Shown here: one piece after another, positions 2,333 through 64,000 of the stretch
How the letters are laid out: the number at the start of each line of letters is the position of its first letter
Position numbering within the stretch: position 1 is the first letter of the stretch
Assembly: GCF_035594765.1 (NCBI RefSeq)
Contig: NC_085844.1
Location: forward strand, 10,121,923 to 10,185,922
DNA: 64,000 bases
DNA from: Anolis carolinensis
Lineage: Eukaryota
Reading direction: 5' to 3'
Position numbers and translations under genes: made by a program
The notes under the pieces: model-generated
What the model was told of the DNA's origin: nothing
The model's input: the letters and a program-made list of their open reading frames with translations, nothing else
Database searches by the model: none

Positions 2333-3485
2333 TTACTTTACTTACTTACTACTTAGGCGATCCCTCGTAGGCCAAAGATGATGGTCCTTCGTTTCTGGTA
2401 TCTTGGGGGTGTGTCTGTAGGTGGCTGAAGAGACCTATTCTTGATCTGCATGTTCTCCCGCAGTGAGGACATTGGTTTCCAGGTGGAAGGCGGTCCCGGT
2501 CAGGGTTGGCTTGACGCTCCTTCCTCTTGGCACGTTTCTCCCTTAAACCCTCTGTTCGTGCCTCTTCGAACTCTGCAGCACTGCTGGTCACAGCTGACCT
2601 CCAATTAGAGCGCTCAAGGGCCAAGGCTTCCCAGTTCTCAGTGTCTATGCCACAGTTTTTAAGGTTGGGTTTAAGCCCATCTTTAAATTTCTTTTCCTGC
2701 CCACCAACATTCCGTTTTCCGTTCTTGAGTTCGGACTGCTTTGGGAGATGGTGATCGGGCATTCGGACAACGTGGCCAGTCCAGTGGAGTTGATGGCGTA
2801 GGAGCATCGCTTCAATGCTGGTGGTCTTTGCTTCTTCCAGCTGGCACTTGTCCTCCTGTCTTCCCAAGAGATTTGCAGGATTTTTCTGAGGCAACGCTGT
2901 TGGAAATGCTCCAGGAGTTGAGTGTGACATCTGTAGACCATCCACGTTTTGCAGGCGTAGAGCAGGGTTGGGAGGACAATGGCTTTGTAAACAAGCACCT
3001 TGGTATCTCTAGGGATGTCCCGATCATCAAACACTCTCTGCTTCATTCTGAAAAATGCTGCACTCACAGAGCTCAGGCGGTGTTGTATTTCAGTGTCAAT
3101 GTTGACTTTTGTGGAGTGGTGGCTGCCAAGGGAGCAGATATGGTCGATATTTTCTATTGTTACGCCATTAAGCTGTATTCCTAGCATTGCAGAGGGATTA
3201 GCTGGTGCCTGCTGGAAGAGGACTTTGGTTTTCTCAATGTTCAATGAGAGGTTGAGCTTCTCGTATGCTTCTGCGAAGGTGTTTAGAGTGGCTTGAAGGT
3301 CTTCTTCTGAATGTGCACAGACTACATTGTCATCGGCATATTGGAGTTCTATAATATATGTTGTGGTGACCTTGGTTTTGGCTTTCAGTCTGCTGAGGTT
3401 AAATAGCTTGCCATCTGTCTGACAGATTATTTCCACTCCGGTGGGAAGCTTCCCATCAACAAAGTGAAGTATCATAGTGATGAAG
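2333..3485 (-). mobile_element. 5'-truncated RTE-clade LINE (RT C-terminus plus C2H2-like tail), frameshifted
   Basis: QYADD RT motif and CPHCGRTC...LFSHLQTH in ORFs 2645-3475 and 2349-2945. (TAAG)n-like tail. 11-bp TSD ATTATTATGCT at 2322-2332 and 3486-3496. Confidence 0.93.
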
Positions 3486-3518
3486 ATTATTATGCTACTA
3501 CTGTGGTAGTAGTAGTAG

Positions 3519-3788
3519 TTTTTTTTTTTACCATGTCACAAGAAAGTTGAGAATATGCTGCAAGTCACCTCTGGTGTGAGGGAATTAGCCATCTACAGAG
3601 ATATTGCCCAGTAGACGTCTGGATGTGTTAGCTGGGAGGCTTCTCTGATGTCCCCGCAAGCTAGAGCTGAACGATGGGAGCTCTCCCCGTCTTGCAGATT
3701 CGTACCGGCAACCTTCAGATCAGCAACCCAACCTTCAGGTCAGCAGTTCAGGCGGCACAAGGGTTTAACCCATTGTACCACCGCGGCA
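3519..3788 (-). mobile_element. tRNA-derived SINE (Sauria-type, poly-A tailed subfamily)
   Basis: Similar to 15800-16060, 21122-21380 and 29623-29882. Confidence 0.8.
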
Positions 3789-4353: not shown

Positions 4354-4425
4354 AAGTTGTTATCATTTTATATGTCCGGTTCTAGAATAAGAAAAGAGTC
4401 ACTTTGGTCTCTTTTGTTTTTGCAG

Positions 4426-5383
4426 GTCTTTCTATAAACATGGACTGAAATGCTTACTTATGCTCTACACAGATGCATATCCAACCATAAATGGAAGTAC
4501 TGGGATTAGACCTTCAATTGACATTTCAAATCTAAATGGAAAAATGATCAACATTGTTATTGTTCTAGTCTGCCTTTTGGGAATTCTTGGAAATGGAAGG
4601 GTCATTTGGGTTCTTGGCTTCAGCATTAAAAGGAATTCTTTTACAACCTACGTCATGAATCTTTCCATTGCTGATTTTGGGGTCCTCACCTGCCTGCTTG
4701 GCATTGCTTCTATTCAATTTGTATTGAATTCATCTAGTGGAATCCTTGCTATCTTTCTCTATATTTCAATAACCACTGAGCTACTTTTCCTCACTTTTTT
4801 TTCCAGCCAGTTTCTGTTGACAGTCATAAGCATTGACAGGTGTGTGGCTGTTTTCTTTCCAATTTGGCATCGATGCCACCGGCCCCCATATTTATCCACT
4901 GTTGTTTGTGCCATAGTTTGGGTAGTTTCTTTCCTGCTCTCTGGAATTCGTTTTACTCTCATCTACATTTTTTGCTCACGACATATAATATTCGTCCTTG
5001 AGGTGATTGGTCTGCTTTGCCCCCCTCTCATGATCATTTCCACTCTGACTCTGTTCATCAAAGTCTGCTGTAAACTGAAGCAATACCAGCAAGGAAAGCT
5101 TGTTACAACTGTTTTGCTTACACTCCTCTGTTTTTTAATGCTTATTGTGCCTGATATAATCTATAAACTGGATCCTAATTTTCATGTTGCTCTCCTGTCT
5201 TGGATTGCTATTGCCTGTGCTTCTGTGAATAGTAGCATCAACCCATTGATCTATTTCTTAGTCGGGAGGAGGCAAAAGAAGGGTCGGGCCAAAGTCTCCA
5301 TGAAGGTTGCACTTGAGAGGGTTTTCAAGGATGAGCAAGATGTTGTGGAAGAAGAAACGCCTATGGAAGAAATCCATGTATAA
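4426..5383 (+). CDS. MRGPR/MAS-like GPCR gene 1, main coding exon (334 aa when spliced to 1855-1901)
   Basis: 7TM with GN, NLSIADF, SIDRC, PIWHRCHRP and NSSINPLIYFLVG motifs. Acceptor TTTTTGCAG|G. Frame is open from the acceptor. Confidence 0.95.
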
Positions 5384-12535: not shown

Positions 12536-12985
12536 CTGTATGGTTTATATCTTTATATAAATAAAGCTTTTTTTCTGGTTAGTGGTACTGAAATTCGTTT
12601 GTGTCTTATAATTGATAGTGTCTTAGAATTGAAGAAATATGATAATATAATAATATGGAGCCCTAAACTGTATGTATCAAATTATCACAACTATCTGCCA
12701 GTAAAGACTGGCCTTTTCTAATCTTGGAAGCTAAGTGGGACCTGCCCTGGTTAGTATTTGAATACCAGTTGGCTATATTTCAGAGGAAGGACAACACAAA
12801 ACTTTCTGGAGTCATATGTACATCCCGCCCCCAAAGCATCAACACTATACACGTGGGTTAAGGTTGTACATCCATAACATGGGAGCTGGAAACAAGACCA
12901 TGGGAAGAAATGAAAATTGATTTCAATATATATAGTCAGTTCCTGAATAGGAACATAGTCACTTTGCCCTGTCTTCTATTTGCAG

Positions 12986-25657: not shown

Positions 25658-26656
25658 ATATAGAATCATAGAATCATAGAATCATAGAATCATAGAATAG
25701 TAGAGTTGGAAGAGACCTCAAGGGCCATCTAGTCCAACCCCCCGCTAAGAAGCAGGAAATCGCATTCAAAGCACCCCCGACAGATGGCCATCCAGCCTCT
25801 GCTTAAAAGCCTCCAAAGAAGGAGCCTCCACCACGGCCCGGGGGAGAGAGTTCCACTGCCGAACAGCCCTCACAGTGAGGAAGTTCTTCCTGATGTTCAG
25901 GTGGAATCTCCTTTCCTGTAGTTTGAAGCCATTGTTCCGTGTCCTAGTCTGCAGGGCAGCAGAAAATAAGCTTGCTCCCTCCTCCCTATGACTTCCCCTC
26001 ACATATTTGTACATGGCTATCATGTCTCCTCTCAGCCTTCTCTTCTGCAGGCTAAACATGCCCAGCTCTTTAAGCCTCTCCTCATAGGGCTTGTTCTCCA
26101 GACCCTTAATCATTTTAGTTGCCCTCCTCTGGACGCTTTCCAGCTTGTCAGCATCTCCCTTCATCTGCGGTGCCCAAAACTGGACACAGTATTCCAGGTG
26201 TGGTCTGACCAAGGCAGAATAGAGGGGGAGCATGACTTCCCTGGATCTAGACGTTATTCCCCTATTGATGCAGGCCAAAATCCCATTGGCTTTTTTAGCT
26301 GCCGCATCACATTGTAGGCTCATGTTTAACTTGTTGTCCACGAGGACTCCAAGATCTTTTTCGCACACACTGCTGTCAAGCCAGGCGTCCCCCATTCTGT
26401 ATCTTTGATTTCCATTTTTTCTGCCGAAGTGAAGTATCTTGCATTTGTCCCTGTTGAACTTCATTTTGTTAGTTTCGGCCCATCTCTCTAGTCTGTCAAG
26501 ATCGTTTTGAATTCTGCTCCTGTCTTCTGGAGTGTTAGCTATCCCTCCGAGTTTGGTGTCATCTGCAAACTTGATGATCGTGCCTTCTAACCCTTCGTCT
26601 AAGTCGTTAATAAAGATGTTGAACAGAACCGGGCCCAGGACGGAGCCCTGCGGCAC
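25658..26656 (-). mobile_element. Young 5'-truncated CR1 LINE in gene 3 intron
   Basis: Uninterrupted 296-aa RT C-terminus ([12 protein letters not shown]); (ATTCTATG)n 3' tail. Confidence 0.97.
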
Positions 26657-27930
26657 AGTTCAGTGCAGATGATCTGGATTTTATATGGCAATATAGAAGG
26701 GGTCTAAATTACAGCTCCATGATTTTATAGCATTGAGCCCTGGCAATTAAAGTGGCTCCATATTCCATTAATTCTACAGTGCAAAGGCACCCAGAATCCA
26801 TCTTTTCTATCTGTATCTGGAACCATTCTTCTTAAGCCCCGTCTACATTGCCCTATATCCCAGGAGCCAATTGCAATTATGTGCTTTAAACTGGATTATA
26901 TGAGTCTTCACTGCCAGATAATAAGATAATCTGGGATCAGATACTGGGATATAGGTGCAGTGTGGAAGGGGCCTACGTCTTAAGAATAAGATCTTCCATC
27001 CACAATGTCATCAGCAGTCTCTACAGTAGACATGAACAAACTTGGGTCCTCCAGGTGTTTTGGACTTTGGATGCTGAGGATGCTTAAAATATAAGCCCTA
27101 TTTCAAAAATAAGCCCTAGATATAGTTCATTTAAAAAGTCAATTTGGAAAAACAAGATTCCCCTGAAAACAAGCCATAACGCATCTTTTGGAGCAAAAAT
27201 TAATATAAGACCCTGTCTTATTTTGGAGGAAACAGGGTAGATTTAGATTATTGTAGAAGCGTCCTGAGATTCAGATTTTTCAAAGCGTTCAACTGGTATC
27301 TCTTATCTTAACCTGCAGTTGTGCATTGATCACTCTGAAAGCTTACAAAAGAGCTGTTCCTTAGCTTTCCTACAATATGAAATTTTAATTTCATTTCACT
27401 TCCAGGCTGGAGCTTACGGAATTTAAAAAGAGACATGGGCAGGTGTATTGAGTAGCTGCTTTTTCCTCTTTGGAGTTTCTCCTTCCCTGAATGAGAACAT
27501 ATTCCATCGTGTGGTTTCAGCAATAGGGGGTCCGTATGCTATCTCCAACTGCTCCATCTAAAACAAAGTAAAATAATTTGAAGGTTTGCAAAAACACACC
27601 TTGACCTCAAATTTATTATCCTGTGACATGTTTTTTTATATGGAATCATGAATGAAATTACTTTTTTTTTTATATTGGGAGCTAAGTGGGGTTAGAACTG
27701 GATGGGAGTCCAATAATGAATATTTCAAAGGGAGGACATGGCAAAATAGGAAAATTCTATGGATTTTGTGGGTTAGACAGATAATTGAAGACATGTGTAC
27801 ATTTAGTTGAACAACCACAACCTGGGAATTCAAAGTAAGATTGTGCAAGGAAATGAAAATTGTAGTATTTTTTTTTCTTTCTGATTTCTGAATAGGAACA
27901 GAATCACTTTTGTCTATCTTCTCTTTGCAG

Positions 27931-28912
27931 GTCTTTGCATGAAGGGAAAAACAGTTTCTATAAAGCATTTCTATGTAATTTATCTAATTCTGACCAATTG
28001 GACAACAACAAAATATTCCTTCCTGCCATATGTGCAAATGACACTTCTGGAACAATAAAAGACCTCAATATTATAACAGTTATATTCTGTATTTTGGGAC
28101 TTCCTGGAAATGGAATGGTCATCTGGCTTCTTGGCTTCAGAATTAAGAGGAATAATTCCACCACCTACGTCATGAACCTTGCCATTGCTGATTTTGGTGT
28201 CCTCATCTTCCTGCTTAGCATGGCTAGCTCTGTCATACACTCGTGCGATGGCTATCCTGTTACAAAGTCTTCCTTTCAAATAATCCGTCAACTAGTTTTC
28301 TTCACTTATTCTTCTAGCCAGTTTCTGTTGGCAACTATCAGCATTGACAGATGTGTGGCTGTTCTCGTCCCACTCTGGTATCGATACCACCGCCCCCCAC
28401 GTTTATCCATCATAGTTTCTATCCTTATCTGGTTAGTCTCCTTTCTGCTTGCTGTAATCCACTTAGTTCTTCTTGAGACCCAGAGTTTAGTTTTTTTCTA
28501 CCACCTTTTTGTGAATGTCCTGCTTTGCACACCCATCATGGTCATATGTACTTTCATTCTGGTCATCCAGATCTGTTATAAACCAAAACAACACCTGCGG
28601 CGAAAGCTTGCCACAGCCATTTTATTCACACTCCTCTTTTTTGTCCTCTTTACTTTCCCATTTAACATGATTTATAGCTTTGAAGAAGCACATGAAAACA
28701 AGTGTTATAAAATTACCACCATGACATTCATTTGCTGTGCCTTTGCTTCTCTGAACAGCAGCATCAACCCCCTGATCTATTTCTTAGTTGGATGGGGTCG
28801 AATGATGGGTAAGGTCAAGATTTCCATGAAGGCGGCACTTGAAAGAGTTTTCAGGGATGAGCAAGACAGTAGCAGAGAAGAACAAGCTAGCACAGGAGAA
28901 ACCCATATATAA
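27931..28912 (+). CDS. MRGPR/MAS-like GPCR gene 3, main coding exon (342 aa spliced)
   Basis: 7TM motifs; acceptor CTCTTTGCAG|G; the ORF-track start is a TTG. Confidence 0.95.
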
Positions 28913-34050: not shown

Positions 34051-35062
34051 TCAAACAGTGGTTACACTTGAATTGTTCTGTTCTTCATTATGGTCATGCT
34101 CATCCTTGAAGACCCTCTGGAGTGCCACCTTCACGGACACTCTGGGCTGACCTTTCTTTTGTCTCCTCCCAATTAAGAAATAGATCAGAGGATTGATGCA
34201 ACTGTTCAGAGAAGCACAGACAAAACCTGCTACCATTAGGCTGTGAAGAGAGGTGTGATAATGATTTATAATATAGAACACATTAAGTGGAAAAGCAAAG
34301 ATGAGGAAGAAGAGGAGGGCAAGCAAGATGGATGTGACAAGCTTTCCCCTCGGATGTTGTTTTGTTTTACACCATAATTGAATGAACAGGATCAGAGTGG
34401 AGGTAACCATGATAGGAGTGCAAATCAGAACATTCACAATAAGTGGATACAACAGTGGAGTATTGCCAAAGCGCTTAGTTCTATGCAGAGTGAAGTGAAT
34501 TGCAGAGAGCACAAAAGAGAGGATCCAGGTTAGGGTACAAACAATGGGGGACAAACACGGAGGCCGGTGGCATCGATGCCAAAGTGGGAAGAGGACGGCC
34601 ACAGATCTGTCAATACTGATGGCAGCCAATAAATATTGACTTGCAGAATATGTGAGAAAAAATAACTCCAGAGAAATAAGGAAAAAAAGAGTGTGAATAT
34701 TGATTTCATTATACTGACCCACAGACATCCCCAAAGCAGCAGTGCTAATTAGAAAGACAAGGACCCCGAAGTCAGCTATGGAGAGGTTTAGGATGTAAGT
34801 GGTGAAAGGATTTCTCTTCATGCAAAAGCCAAGAAGCCAAATGACCATTCCATTTCCCACAAGACCTAAAAGGCAGGTTATGACAACAAAACTATTGATG
34901 ATAATTTCTGTTATACTATCAGGAGATACATGATCAGTGCTATTAATTGGTTGCCAAATCCCAGCACTTCCGTTTATGTCTGGATAAAGAGTTAGCTTGT
35001 TTTCCAAATCTCCAGAAGCAGTGTTGTCATCCATAATGTTGCTAACTTCTATATAAACTGGC
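34051..35062 (-). CDS. MRGPR/MAS-like GPCR gene 4, main exon (internal ATG at 35034 gives 327 aa)
   Basis: 7TM motifs (DRS, FPLN, NPLIY); acceptor TTCACAG|G at 35062; frame open from the acceptor in phase 2. Confidence 0.95.
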
Positions 35063-35619
35063 CTGTGAACAGAATGAGACAAACATAAATAAATTTCTAT
35101 TATGGAATTGTACCCACAAAAATGATTATGGTTTCCCACCCTTACATAATCATATTACTTTACCTGCCATTTGAGTAAAGGACACTGATTAAAACAGTTG
35201 ATACATACAACACCACCTTAATATATTGCATAAATCAGAATTGCGTTGTTTATAATTCACCACAGGGATTGTTTTATAAAAACAAAGTTTCATTTTCTTC
35301 CTTCTTGAGTGATTTTTAAAGACTTCTTCTAGGAAGGTTTGAATGGATAAGTGGTAGGATGATGCAGCTGAAACATTTCTTACAATGTTGCTGGTGGTGC
35401 TAGTGATGTTTTGATAATTGTTTGAGATCTTGGTTTTGATCCTGTTAAGGTGTTCGGTGGAGGTCTGATATTTTTGCTATGCACTGATGTGTTACACAGT
35501 TTCTTTTACAATTCAAACCAACTGACAGACTGTTCATTGAAAGTGGTTAAACTTATGTTTACGTCAACCTCATGTATAAGGCAGGTTTGGGGCCTAAATT
35601 ATTGATTGTGATATGATAA

Positions 35620-51930: not shown

Positions 51931-52830
51931 TCATATTTTACATTCAGAGGTCTCCATTTCTTCTGAAATCTCTTCCTCCTCCTTGAAAACCTTCTGGAGT
52001 ATTTCCTTCATGGTCTTCTTAATTTTGCCCATCTTTTGTCTCCCAACCATGAAATAGATCAGTGGATTAATGGTGCTGTTTATGCATGTGCACAAGTAGC
52101 CGTAATGCACAAGGTTGGGGTGTACTCCTTGGCCAACATAATTGCTAAAGTAGAAGACATTCAGTGGAAAAGCCAGGATCAGGAAGAACATAAGAGTAAG
52201 CAGGATTGCGAGTAAAAGTTTTCCCCGCCTTTGATGTTTTGATATGAAGTAGACTTTGATGAACAGGATCAGGCTGGAGATAGTCATGAGTGGGAGGCAA
52301 AGCACAGCATTTACCATAAATTGGAGCATCACGGGAGAGTTGCCAAAGACTTTCCTAAGAAGGAGAGTGAGGTGAATGGCACTGAGAGTAAAAGAGATGA
52401 GCCATATGAGGGAAGACACGGTGGTGAACCAGTGCCCTGGCCGGTGACATCGGTACCAAACTGGGAAGAGGACAGAGATGCATCTGTCAATACTGATGAC
52501 AGTCAGTAGAAACTGACCAGCGCTGTACATCAGTAGGAAGATGGTTTGGAACAATTCATAGGGAAAGTCACAGTACAAGTGTGTCACAAGCCAATGTATT
52601 TCTATAATCAGTTCAATTGTGAGCAAGCCAAAGTCTGCAAAGGACAAATTGAGGATGTAAATGGCAAAGGTATTCCTTTTGCAGAAGCCAAGTACTTGGA
52701 TGACAATTCCATTCCCCAACATCCCCAAAACACAAAAAAGCATAGTGAAGATGGCAAAAACAAGTACTTCATTATCCAGCCCTTTATCGTAGCATGAGGT
52801 ACTTGTATTTGAATGCTGAGTTTCATTCAT
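51931..52830 (-). CDS. MRGPR/MAS-like GPCR gene 5 (299 aa)
   Basis: ATG with in-frame upstream TGA; N-terminal sequons; DRC, WYRCHRP, FPLN and NPLIYF motifs. Confidence 0.95.
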   Translation of the reverse strand: MNETQHSNTSTSCYDKGLDNEVLVFAIFTMLFCVLGMLGNGIVIQVLGFCKRNTFAIYILNLSFADFGLLTIELIIEIHWLVTHLYCDFPYELFQTIFLLMYSAGQFLLTVISIDRCISVLFPVWYRCHRPGHWFTTVSSLIWLISFTLSAIHLTLLLRKVFGNSPVMLQFMVNAVLCLPLMTISSLILFIKVYFISKHQRRGKLLLAILLTLMFFLILAFPLNVFYFSNYVGQGVHPNLVHYGYLCTCINSTINPLIYFMVGRQKMGKIKKTMKEILQKVFKEEEEISEEMETSECKI

Positions 52831-53039
52831 TGTTCAATTTTTGTTTCCAGAATAAAAAAGAGATGAGTTTGTCTGACTCAAATTGGTCTTTACAGGCAAT
52901 CCTTCCTTTTATGTCTCATTAGGGCAGAAAGTTCTGTTGGAAGAAAAGATAGATCAAATTAGTCTTTACTATGGAGATAAACCCAAAAGATGTAGCTTTA
53001 AGAGTAACCTTACTGTTAAGTGGCCAACTGCAATTGCTA

Positions 53040-55150: not shown

Positions 55151-56081
55151 TGTGATGAGTCATGGGCCATGTAGTCCCGTTCCTGGCACTGTTGTGCTAG
55201 ATGAGGAGGAAAACTGGGGTTTCTCACCGTTTCAGTCAGAATTGGAACTTTCCCAGCCAGATTTGGAAACCTTGCACCTGCAAGAGATTTGTCTTCCAGA
55301 AGTCTGTCAAACAAGCCCTGAGCCTAAATCTCCTACGTTTTCTCGCCATGAGTTTTGTAAACAACAGAGGGGAGTTCAAGCGGCCTCTCGCAGGAGTGCT
55401 AGGATAGCTGCTAAGCATTCAGCTGATTAAGTCTGCTTTCCATGAGAAACTTTAAGGAGTCACACATCTGGACTCAGAGAATAGCTTTCGTTTCTGGTTC
55501 TCCAGAGAACTGCTCTTTGGCGGGAAAACGAGACCCTATTTAGGTGTTTTACCCACAAAGGGATCTTGCGGAGTCAATTCGTCAGCTACCGGAGTAGCGT
55601 GTGTGGACAGCTACTCCGTTTCCAAGCCTCGTTCCTGTTTCAAGCCTTGTTCCCGATTTCAAGCCTTCGTTTCCAGCCTTGTTTTACTCTCCGGATCTTG
55701 CCTTGTTTTCCGGACCTCGCCAAGTAATTCCACGGATCCTATTCTTGCTCCTCGTTTCCTTGCTGCCTCGAATCAAGCCTTGTGTTTCAAGAATCAAGTT
55801 ATTTTCTAGCCTTGCTCAAGTTCATGGACTAAGGACCTTGTCATCTCCCCTCACTTGCTTGGCAAGTGAGTGTTTCGGTTATTGGATTACAACTTTGGAC
55901 CTTAATATTTCATATTGGACATTGCTTCTTTGGACTAATTTTGACCTTTCCTGAAAGGTCTACTCCTGGACTAATTCATACGCTTGCTTTTATTAACTTT
56001 ACATATTTCCTTAATAAAGATATTAGATAGATTCTGGCCTCTGTGTATGGTTATTGGTGCTCTGCTGCCTGGGTCGTGACA
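55151..56081 (+). mobile_element. Solo LTR (931 bp)
   Basis: TG...CA termini; 5-bp TSD GGTAC; TATA-like TATTTA at ~55536; AATAAA at 56013. Confidence 0.93.
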
Positions 56082-61330: not shown

Positions 61331-64000
61331 CCAGTAGGCTGTTGCTGAACAACCTATGAACTTTTAGCATTAAAGGAAAAAATGCCCAAGATTTTATCAC
61401 TTAATACTGTTGGCATGTCTGGAGAAGAAGAATAGAATGCTTCTATACCAGGCAAGGGCAAACTTTGCCCATGTCTGGAGTTAGGAATTGTAGGAGTTGA
61501 AATCCAAAACAATTTGACAGAAAACTGGGAGTTGTAGTTTGGCATGGTACTGGCTCTCTTCTGCAGGGAAGGCTAGGGACTTTGTAAAACTACAGCTCAC
61601 ATGATTACATGGCACTGAATCTGTTGCAATTGAGCTGGTGCCATAATCCTTTCAGGGAGATCTCCTCAGTGGAGATATCTCTTAAAGGGATATCCTCTGG
61701 CTCTAAGGATTCCGTTTAGGAAGGCTTGCCTGGCTCTGGTATTCCTCTTTAAGCCTGTCTGGAAAGAAGCAAAACCAAACACGCGGCTCCAAGGCAGGGC
61801 GAGGAGAAGGCCAAGCGCAGGCAGGCATGTCTCTTCTCTCTTCTCTTCCCTCCCTCCCTGCTTCTCTCTCTCTCTCTCTCAGAGAGAGAGAGAGAGAGAA
61901 GCAGGGAGGGGAGAGAGAGAAGGGAAGAGAGAGCAATGCCGAAGGCTTCTACTGAGCCGGTGGTCCCCGCGGGGGGGGGGGGTCTCAATGGCATTTTTAA
62001 AATGCTAGCAGATCGATGGCCATGCCTCTCCCTCCCTCCCTCTTCCGCTCTGATTGGCTGAGAGGCATGCCAACATGGCTTCTCCTCTCAGAGGGGCTAC
62101 AGCTACATCCGAAGACATCAGAAACAAACGAAAAAAGGTACTTTTATTATTCAAATTTGTAATATTTGTTAGGCAGTGAGCAGATGGTTCAAATATCAAT
62201 TCAAAAGTAATTACGAAACTAATTTTAAACGAATTTAACGAACTAACGAAAAATTTGCTCAAGCCTAGTAATCAGAATGCAGTCCAGGGAAACCCACACA
62301 GTTCCATCCCTCTGCTGCAGAGCAGTCCCAGATAACTTACATCCGAATCACAGTCCAAGTCCAGTCTTCACGGAAATACAGAGATCCCAATGGCACCTCA
62401 GCAACACCTTGCCACACGCAAAGTGCAGTGGCCAAACATTCCTATTTTATTCCCCTTCCTCCTGGGTGACCAAACACTCACACCCAAACACCAGGTGTCC
62501 CAAATCTACACAGAGTCTGAACTCCACACAGCTAGAGCTCGTGGATCTGGAGTACCTAGCAATTCGTCGGAGTCCCAATCATCCTGCCCACACTTAGCCC
62601 CATGAACACTTAAAGAACCATCCTCCCTTCTTCAAACATCCCAAGTGGGATCAGCTCCTGCAGAAACCCCAGGTTCAGTAGTATCCATAGGCCCCAAATC
62701 CCCAGACATCTCCGGTGGCTGTGCCCATTCAGTGCCCACTTCCTCAGCCACCACCTGTTCCTCAGCATCCATCTCCCCATCTGAATCTTCCTCAGAAGAT
62801 CCCCCATATGGCTCTCTAAGTTGCTTCCTGCGCAACTCCTCCAGTGAACCCTCATCACGAGGGTTTTTTCTTCCTCTTCAAATTCCATCACCATCAACCA
62901 TAATCCCCGAAGGCGCAGTCACAACACAACCTGAAACAACAAAATGGTTTACTCTTGTTGAAGTCTGAGTATACAGCAGTGAACTGACTGCATATATTAA
63001 TAACAGAACAGTGCAAATCTCTATGCTAGCAATGTTACACAGGTCTATGACACCAACAGGATTCTGGCCAATCTGATATTGCTTATGCCTTCTCTCACTA
63101 TTGGGATTACTCTTCTCTTCTACTTTGCTTTTGAGAATGTGCCTATGGTGTCTCTTATGCAGTACACTATTTGCAAGATCAGAAGTGATGCTAGTAGTCA
63201 TTGGAAGAAGGATCAGGCTTTCTCCCAGAAAAACCATCCACTTGGTTGAGGACAAGACCACACACACAAAATACATACTGTTTTGCAATTGATTTGCAAA
63301 CAAAATTTAGTCAGAAAGAAAATATTTGGAAAGATTGCTCTGGGGATGATGTACCTACTAAACCACACGCAGAGTAGGTTATTTTTGATTTATATATTTG
63401 TTATTGAACTACCTAGTGCCAATTCACATTACATAACTGTGGTTTGATTTTAACTATCCTAACTGCATCTTATAAACTCCTTGAAATTGTAGATCATGGA
63501 GGCACTGGGTTGAGAATTCTAAATACTGTTCACTAATCTGCAAATTCCAGGATTTCATAAGATGGAGTCATGCCAGTTAAAGTGAAATCATAATACTCTA
63601 AATGCATAGTGTGAACGGGACCCTAATGCTTCCCATTAGCCTTAAACAGGAATGATCTACGTATATAGATACAAAAATGCACCTCATCAGATTGGGGGTT
63701 GTATCTATAAAAAAACATTATGAAGTTGCTCTGAATGTGCAGAATACCTCAAAAGATATTGTTCAGAAGACTGCAGGTTCATCTAAACTATACAGTTATG
63801 CAGCCATGGAAGCCCTCTCATTGATCTTGGGCAACTCACAGTCTCTCAGCCTCAGAAGAAGACAAAGACAACTCCACTTTAGAACTGCCATGGGTTGGAA
63901 ACAACTGAAAGGCACAAAAGAGATGAGAGGTGACATGATAGTAATATATTCCAAAGAACATGAGCCAGTGGATTCAAATTAGAAGAAAAGAGATTCCACC

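What the first reader, a model, noticed from the sequence alone, without database searches (positions are those of the whole stretch)
62506..62901. A second, unrelated-looking LTR also carries a U3 ORF (131 codons, two point stops, no frameshift)
Seen on the - strand: an ATG 26 nt into the LTR reads MVDGDGI*RGRKNPRDEGSLEELRRKQLREPYGGSSEEDSDGEMDAEEQ...PTWDV*RREDG...DDWDSDELLGTPDPRALAVWSSDSV and ends before an AATAAAA TATA-like box (~62445). Both TGA stops are one transition from CGA or TGG. It has NLS-like basic patches, acidic tracts and Trp. Two LTR families with the same layout suggest a general, possibly undescribed class of LTR-encoded acidic regulators (transactivator or anti-silencing; inference).
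Basis: partly seen in the sequence, partly recalled or inferred. Interest (0 to 1): 0.7.

Follow-up and report, generated by a model that had tools for sequence, protein, structure and literature searches.

The report
Integrase tail encoded inside lizard LTR
The short reading frame in this lizard retrotransposon's terminal repeat is not a separate gene but the last 140 codons of the integrase gene running on into the repeat, where an acidic tail sits in place of the lost chromodomain and likely helps carry or tether the integrase in the nucleus.

Summary
The frame is real: 22 of 29 sibling LTRs are open where this copy has two stops. It is not a stand-alone U3 gene. In 18 of 18 fetched 3' LTRs the frame continues pol through the polypurine tract (43-1127 open codons upstream, against 6 and 9 in the other frames). 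The element is a Tf1/sushi-type Gypsy (gag, PR-RT-RH-IN-SH3, self-priming site, 5-bp TSD) that lost its chromodomain. The frame lies upstream of the predicted transcription start. The window's other LTR (55151-56081) is the same thing: a pol tail, there behind a chromodomain (8 of 8). A related family lacks the 5' in-frame ATG (13 of 14). The tail is under purifying selection between families (dN/dS about 0.29), is predicted disordered, and keeps a bipartite NLS pattern and a Trp motif. It most likely works as an integrase import and tethering module; this is inferred. The closest precedent is the plant CRM group A CR motif, also encoded in the 3' LTR, but no centromeric clustering was seen here. 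Verdict: new variant of a known kind; modest interest.

The parts
62266..62926 (-). 5' 661 nt of a family-B Gypsy LTR (all of U3 and the start of R), 3'-truncated; no second LTR end or TSD
   Evidence: 96-97% to sibling LTRs over exactly this span; siblings continue to about 1358 nt, end in CA and have 5-bp TSDs
62506..62925 (-).
   Evidence: frame continuous with pol in 18 of 18 3' LTRs; pol ORFs end at LTR position 418; domains; translation through the junction
62878..62880 (-).
   Evidence: shared by 3 of 29 siblings
62632..62634 (-).
   Evidence: not seen in the siblings
62815..62877 (-). Two basic clusters forming a bipartite NLS pattern; the second is predicted helical
   Evidence: pattern in 22 of 22 B, 12 of 12 C, 10 of 10 D open copies; helix 28-40 in the model; NLS function inferred
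62626..62652 (-). Trp-rich motif (DP-W-x-x-WR in open copies) inside the acidic tail
   Evidence: invariant across families B, C, D in alignment A1; short helix 96-100
62445..62451 (-). AATAAAA, predicted TATA element
   Evidence: 29 of 30 copies; begins 32 nt upstream of the self-primer site
62409..62419 (-). 11-nt self-primer site, predicted 5' end of the RNA (U3/R border)
   Evidence: complementary to the bases just behind the 5' LTR of full-length copies; TSS inferred from the Tf1 mechanism
55151..56081 (+).
   Evidence: pol frame continuous in 8 of 8 full-length copies, behind a chromodomain

Best explanation
The frame is the last ~140 codons of the pol gene of a Tf1/sushi-type Gypsy retrotransposon, read through the polypurine tract into U3 of the 3' LTR, and the tail it encodes likely serves the integrase as a nuclear-import and chromatin-tethering module in place of the lost chromodomain. 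Shown: gene order, frame continuity, chromodomain absence, selection on the tail. Inferred: the RNA starts at the self-primer site, so U3 is present only at the 3' end of the genomic RNA; Gag-Pol is made by a -1 frameshift; protease releases integrase with the tail attached; the basic clusters import it and the Trp/acidic motif binds a host protein. Reverse transcription copies U3 to both ends, so every 5' LTR and solo LTR carries a headless, promoter-upstream copy of the tail. The window copy is such a remnant, truncated, with two stops gained after insertion.
For: Frame continuity: 18 of 18 family-B 3' LTRs, 43-1127 open codons upstream against 6 and 9 in the other frames; 13 of 18 read to the family stop; 8 of 8 family A; 5 of 5 family C. 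Domains PR-RT-RH-IN-SH3 and no Chromo hit in three family-B Pol frames. Self-primer match of 11 nt at LTR position 508/517 with AATAAAA 32 nt upstream. Family D lacks a 5' in-frame ATG in 13 of 14 copies. dN/dS B x D 0.29 over 220 pairs; one pair bootstrap 0.14-0.45. Third-position excess in 8 of 8 nucleotide-level pairs (p 0.0009-0.017), net indels in triplets; the non-coding control shows neither (p 0.37). Chromodomain-less B and C form a clade (100/100) nested among chromodomain-bearing lizard elements (99/97, 100/99). Bipartite NLS pattern in 44 of 44 open copies. Precedent: plant CRM group A (PMC3059260) and the Ty1 integrase NLS linker (PMC7459421).
Against: No direct evidence of function or of protein. 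The tail is only 39% identical between B and C against 75-85% for the enzyme domains. Within-family dN/dS is already 0.56 (B) and 0.48 (D), so the neutral baseline of this simple method is well under 1, and only open copies were used. No targeting signature was found: 89 sites on the six large contigs are not clustered (pooled KS p 0.17; one contig p 0.01 uncorrected) and 0 of 53 loci have a tRNA gene in their flanks. Family A has a long tail and keeps its chromodomain, so a tail is not simply a replacement, and the A tail gave no tblastn match to the B tail. No full-length family-D element was found, so its link to pol rests on homology and register.
Confidence: 0.8

Rival explanations
1. It is the pol tail, but it has no targeting role: a loosely constrained acidic extension kept for solubility, particle assembly or import only.
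For: Fast evolution (39% identity B x C); predicted disordered (mean pLDDT 55.8); dispersed insertions; an unrelated-looking tail in family A; plant CRM group B elements manage with no targeting domain (PMC3059260).
Against: Invariant Trp motif and spacing across three families and dN/dS about 0.29 point to a specific contact.
Confidence: 0.35
2. One reading: the frame also or mainly gives a free acidic regulator (transactivator or anti-silencing), by protease release from integrase, by splicing, or by translation from the ATG on host read-through RNAs over the many solo LTRs.
For: ATG with A at -3 and G at +4; acidic plus Trp make-up resembles acidic activation domains (recalled knowledge); NLS pattern; thousands of candidate copies, 130 of the best 150 without a stop by my count of the listing (biased to best matches).
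Against: The frame lies upstream of the predicted start site; the ATG is at position 26 in B, position 5 in C and absent in 13 of 14 D copies; continuity with pol explains both the open frame and the selection.
Confidence: 0.1
3. A chance open frame in purine-rich LTR DNA, inherited by young copies.
For: Copies are young (5'/3' LTR identity 98.2-99.4% in 6 of 6), so an open frame persists without selection.
Against: Same frame and register in three diverged families, third-position excess and triplet indels.
Confidence: 0.02

Closest known systems
Tf1/sushi group of chromoviruses (Ty3/Gypsy, Metaviridae)
   Same: Gag, then PR-RT-RH-IN-SH3; self-priming site instead of a tRNA PBS; gag/pol overlap with a GGGAAAA heptamer; clusters with vertebrate chromodomain-bearing elements (group features from 10.1101/2022.12.06.519325 passages).
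   Different: No chromodomain in families B and C; pol runs about 140 codons into the 3' LTR.
Plant CRM group A centromeric retrotransposons (CR motif / CHDCR)
   Same: [quoted passage not shown]
   Different: No sequence match to any Pfam family; self-priming rather than tRNA-Met priming; vertebrate host; insertions dispersed, no cluster seen. An analogue by convergence, not a member.
Ty1 integrase C-terminal bipartite NLS and targeting domain
   Same: A short targeting motif tied to a bipartite NLS at the integrase C-terminus (PMC7459421 abstract and section headings).
   Different: Ty1 is a Copia element that targets Pol III genes through AC40; here 0 of 53 loci have a tRNA gene nearby and no partner is known.
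Retroviral U3 accessory genes (MMTV sag, HIV/SIV nef; recalled, not looked up)
   Same: Coding sequence inside U3.
   Different: Those have their own start and mRNA; this frame is continuous with pol and no env was seen in the ~4 kb internal region.
UniRef 'Gypsy retrotransposon integrase-like protein 1' of Anolis carolinensis (A0A803TM34, P0003)
   Same: Automatic model of the sister family C that already ends in the homologous tail.
   Different: An automatic label; it says nothing of the LTR overlap or of function.

Membership tests
Ty3/Gypsy LTR retrotransposon | TG..CA LTRs with a target-site duplication | tested here: met
   20 of 27 siblings with a found end have an exact 5-bp TSD, 6 more have one mismatch; 4 of 6 full-length copies exact
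Ty3/Gypsy LTR retrotransposon | Gag followed by PR-RT-RH-IN order | tested here: met
   Pfam on L039 gag and L048 pol
Tf1/sushi group | Self-priming: PBS complementary to the 5' end of the RNA | tested here: met
   11-nt match in family B, 10-nt in family A; sequence complementarity only
Tf1/sushi group | RT-IN phylogeny within the fungal/vertebrate chromovirus cluster | tested here: inconclusive
   Nested among lizard, amphibian and fish chromodomain-bearing proteins, but sushi-ichi and Tf1 themselves were not in the tree, the root is a midpoint, and 14 of 33 rows were left out
Tf1/sushi group | -1 frameshift between gag and pol (common, not universal) | tested here: met
   178-nt overlap with GGGAAAA in 3 of 3 copies checked; frameshifting itself not shown
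Chromovirus (strict sense) | Chromodomain at the integrase C-terminus | tested here: not met
   No Chromo hit in 3 of 3 family-B Pol frames, while a family-A-type Pol scored 1.4e-8; loss is derived
CRM group A | [quoted passage not shown] | tested here: met
CRM group A | CR motif sequence | tested here: inconclusive
   No Pfam match for the tail and only two lizard-type hits in 1.84 billion representatives; no CR motif profile was compared directly
CRM group A | Centromeric concentration | tested here: not met
   89 sites not clustered; centromere positions unknown and possibly under-assembled
Stand-alone U3 accessory gene | Own start codon, separate from pol and conserved among relatives | tested here: not met
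Stand-alone U3 accessory gene | Own or spliced mRNA | not testable with these tools
   only contigs of runs guessed to be RNA were available
BEL/Pao or endogenous retrovirus | BEL-type or retroviral domains, tRNA PBS, env | tested here: not met
   Ty3 capsid, RT_RNaseH, Integrase_H2C2 and SH3_Tf2-1 hits; no room or hit for env

The most novel reading that the evidence does not exclude
A lizard chromovirus lineage has repeated the plant CRM innovation independently: it dropped the chromodomain and built, out of its own promoter DNA, a new integrase tether (bipartite NLS plus Trp/acidic motif) that binds a specific vertebrate chromatin or transcription factor and sets where thousands of copies landed. 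U3 is then a dual-coding cassette in which promoter and targeting peptide are swapped together by recombination.
Probability: 0.3. Interest if true: 0.6.

Novelty: new variant of a known kind. Interest (0 to 1): 0.33.

Why it matters
It removes an apparent new class of LTR genes: acidic 'U3 ORFs' in these lizard solo LTRs are integrase tails, which matters for annotation, since gene models already pick them up. What remains is a vertebrate parallel to the plant CR motif: chromodomain loss together with a selected, LTR-encoded tail, in young high-copy families, beside a family that has both chromodomain and tail. That gives a natural comparison for how retroelements change integration tethers and how one stretch of DNA serves as promoter and coding sequence.

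Tried and rejected
Purine-run pattern before the LTR: 6 distinct loci, all solo LTRs. tRNA-type TGG PBS behind the LTR: 91 places, no enriched junction; explained later by self-priming. Pfam on the tail up to E 10: nothing. Word-seeded search for longer proteins with the tail: none at E 0.01; weak evidence, since later found such proteins through the integrase part. ESM Atlas: no result obtainable. Full-length family D: one pattern search, 0 matches; the pattern came from a single divergent copy. Expression: no RNA holder listed; contigs of four runs laid on R-to-U3 gave one skip in one contig (side 21, depth 9), which I do not count, and contigs cannot show starts or levels. tRNA-gene targeting: 0 of 53 loci. 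Clustering of insertions: none; 89 of 91 sites lie on the six largest contigs against 85% expected (p 6e-5), which may reflect removal from small chromosomes rather than targeting. B x C dS is saturated and gives no ratio. Fold search not run: the model is low-confidence. Literature: searches listed no paper whose title or abstract start describes this overlap in vertebrates; Butler et al. 2001 on vertebrate Tf1/sushi elements is not held and Repbase could not be consulted, so it may be noted there. No supplements were read; those of PMC6317226 and PMC3059260 could bear on how common the overlap is.

Full report
Observation. It starts 26 nt into a repeat whose edge is at 62926, where sibling copies pass into unrelated flanks. 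A search of the own genome gave 3072 candidates, of which 40 were scored, at 96-97% identity; I took 29 siblings. They are LTRs of 1204-1363 nt, TG..CA; 27 of 29 had a findable end, 20 of those with an exact 5-bp TSD and 6 with one mismatch. The window copy matches only the first 661 nt and is then cut by unrelated DNA. The frame is open for 134 codons in 22 of 29 siblings; 3 share the first stop, none the second. The window copy is three codons shorter, a variant also seen in the full-length elements. The host is a lizard: the nearest named proteins are from Anolis carolinensis.

Finding the whole element. A purine-rich junction recurs before the LTR in 46 of 74 pattern matches by my count. 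I fetched 18 of these with 8.5 kb upstream. Six measured copies are 5.1-6.3 kb long with 5'/3' LTR identity of 98.2-99.4%. Pfam gives Ty3 capsid/DUF4939 Gag, then protease, RT, RNase H, integrase zinc finger, core and SH3_Tf2-1, and no chromodomain in three family-B Pol frames. In 18 of 18 3' LTRs the frame is open upstream for 43-1127 codons, against 6 and 9 in the other two frames; 17 have the ATG and 13 read to the family stop. One translation runs unbroken from RT through SH3, a 30-residue linker and the polypurine tract into the tail. The ATG is therefore an internal methionine.

Where the promoter lies. The bases behind the 5' LTR are not a tRNA site but match 11 nt at LTR position 508 or 517, and AATAAAA begins 32 nt upstream of that match in 29 of 30 copies. 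Self-priming from the RNA 5' end is a feature of the Tf1/sushi group (10.1101/2022.12.06.519325 and PMC6317226, passages). This puts the predicted start at about 62419. This step is inferred, not measured.

The shared layout. In 8 of 8 full-length copies its 91-codon frame continues pol, there behind a chromodomain. A sister family C has a homologous tail continuous with pol in 5 of 5 copies; family D has the homologous frame in the same register but no in-frame ATG near the start in 13 of 14 copies. UniRef models of family C already end in the tail. A Podarcis protein has a chromodomain plus an acidic tail after a similar junction, and many fish proteins end about 20 residues after a GGG-x-V junction; I did not count these and could not check their LTR borders, so a short ancestral read-through is only a reading. 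In a tree of 19 RT-to-SH3 rows (14 of 33 left out because my start motif did not match), B and C form a clade (100/100) inside chromodomain-bearing lizard elements (99/97 with Podarcis, 100/99 for the group), so the loss is derived (midpoint root, sushi-ichi absent).

Selection. Using open natural copies only (22 of 30 B, 12 of 14 C, 10 of 14 D), Nei-Gojobori dN/dS is 0.29 for B x D (220 non-independent pairs; one pair bootstrap 0.14-0.45) and 0.32 for C x D; B x C is saturated; within families it is 0.56, 0.15 and 0.48. The method's neutral baseline is below 1, so the contrast with 0.5 is the fairer one. Codon-blind alignments show a third-position excess in 8 of 8 pairs (p 0.0009-0.017) with net indels in triplets; the non-coding stretch downstream shows neither. 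The tail changes fast: 39% identity B x C against 75-85% for the enzyme domains.

Likely function. The tail is 23-30% acidic, carries a bipartite NLS pattern in 44 of 44 open copies and an invariant DP-W-x-x-WR motif, and is predicted disordered with two short helices on those motifs. It has no Pfam match and only two hits among 1.84 billion representatives, both of the family-C type. Integrase C-termini are where targeting modules sit. [quoted passage not shown] Ty1 has its targeting domain in a bipartite NLS linker (PMC7459421, abstract and headings). I therefore commit to an import and tethering module: identity as pol tail about 0.95, import role about 0.7, specific targeting about 0.3-0.4. 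Against targeting: sites are dispersed, no tRNA genes lie in 53 of 53 flanks, and family A has both a chromodomain and a tail that did not match this one.

Rivals. A free regulator remains possible through protease release or read-through translation (the ATG context is good), but nothing here shows it; about 0.1. Chance is excluded. The sequencing runs could not speak to expression.

Novelty. The element belongs with the Tf1/sushi-type Gypsy elements, though not a chromovirus in the strict sense, and works, in layout, like CRM group A without being a member. Seven literature searches (listings only) showed no description in vertebrates, but the key 2001 paper and Repbase were out of reach. 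PMC3601003 (passages) added nothing on coding in LTRs. An earlier scan note in another genome describes a similar LTR-or-tail domain (e1-7556530; unchecked, not counted as support). Verdict: new variant of a known kind, interest 0.33.

Noticed in passing
window 4391-5383, 12862-14001, 27896-28912, 34051-35154, 51931-52833: Cluster of five long single-frame 7TM receptor ORFs (7tm_1 hits); they look like MAS-related receptors (label recalled, not tested).
   Followed up: no
window 62265 to about 61750 (-): The DNA that cuts off the LTR is unrelated to it: an AT-rich stretch followed by a GC-rich, CCAAT-containing segment; it matched no fetched locus at length and was not identified.
   Followed up: partly
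L038-L056 against L002: Family-B subfamilies are 95-96% alike over LTR 1-590 but only 80-90% further 3', with different lengths. The window copy joins the short tail variant to the L002-type downstream part, which suggests recombination between subfamilies.
   Followed up: no
L092-L104 (family D): The last ~19 residues of the tail are duplicated in tandem, lengthening it to about 170 residues.
   Followed up: no
L054, L109, L052, L051: Nests of related elements: a family-C element holds a family-D solo LTR that holds a family-B element; elsewhere a C LTR abuts a B LTR end and an A-type element lies beside a B element.
   Followed up: partly
P0018, P0138: RefSeq models that include element sequence: one joins LINE-like sequence to the family-C tail; one named as an opioid growth factor receptor-like isoform consists of Gypsy protease/RT sequence. 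Likely annotation artefacts.
   Followed up: no
window 14556-15264: Array of about six 100-140 nt repeat units.
   Followed up: no
window 2349-3535 and 25766-26659: LINE reverse-transcriptase fragments.
   Followed up: no
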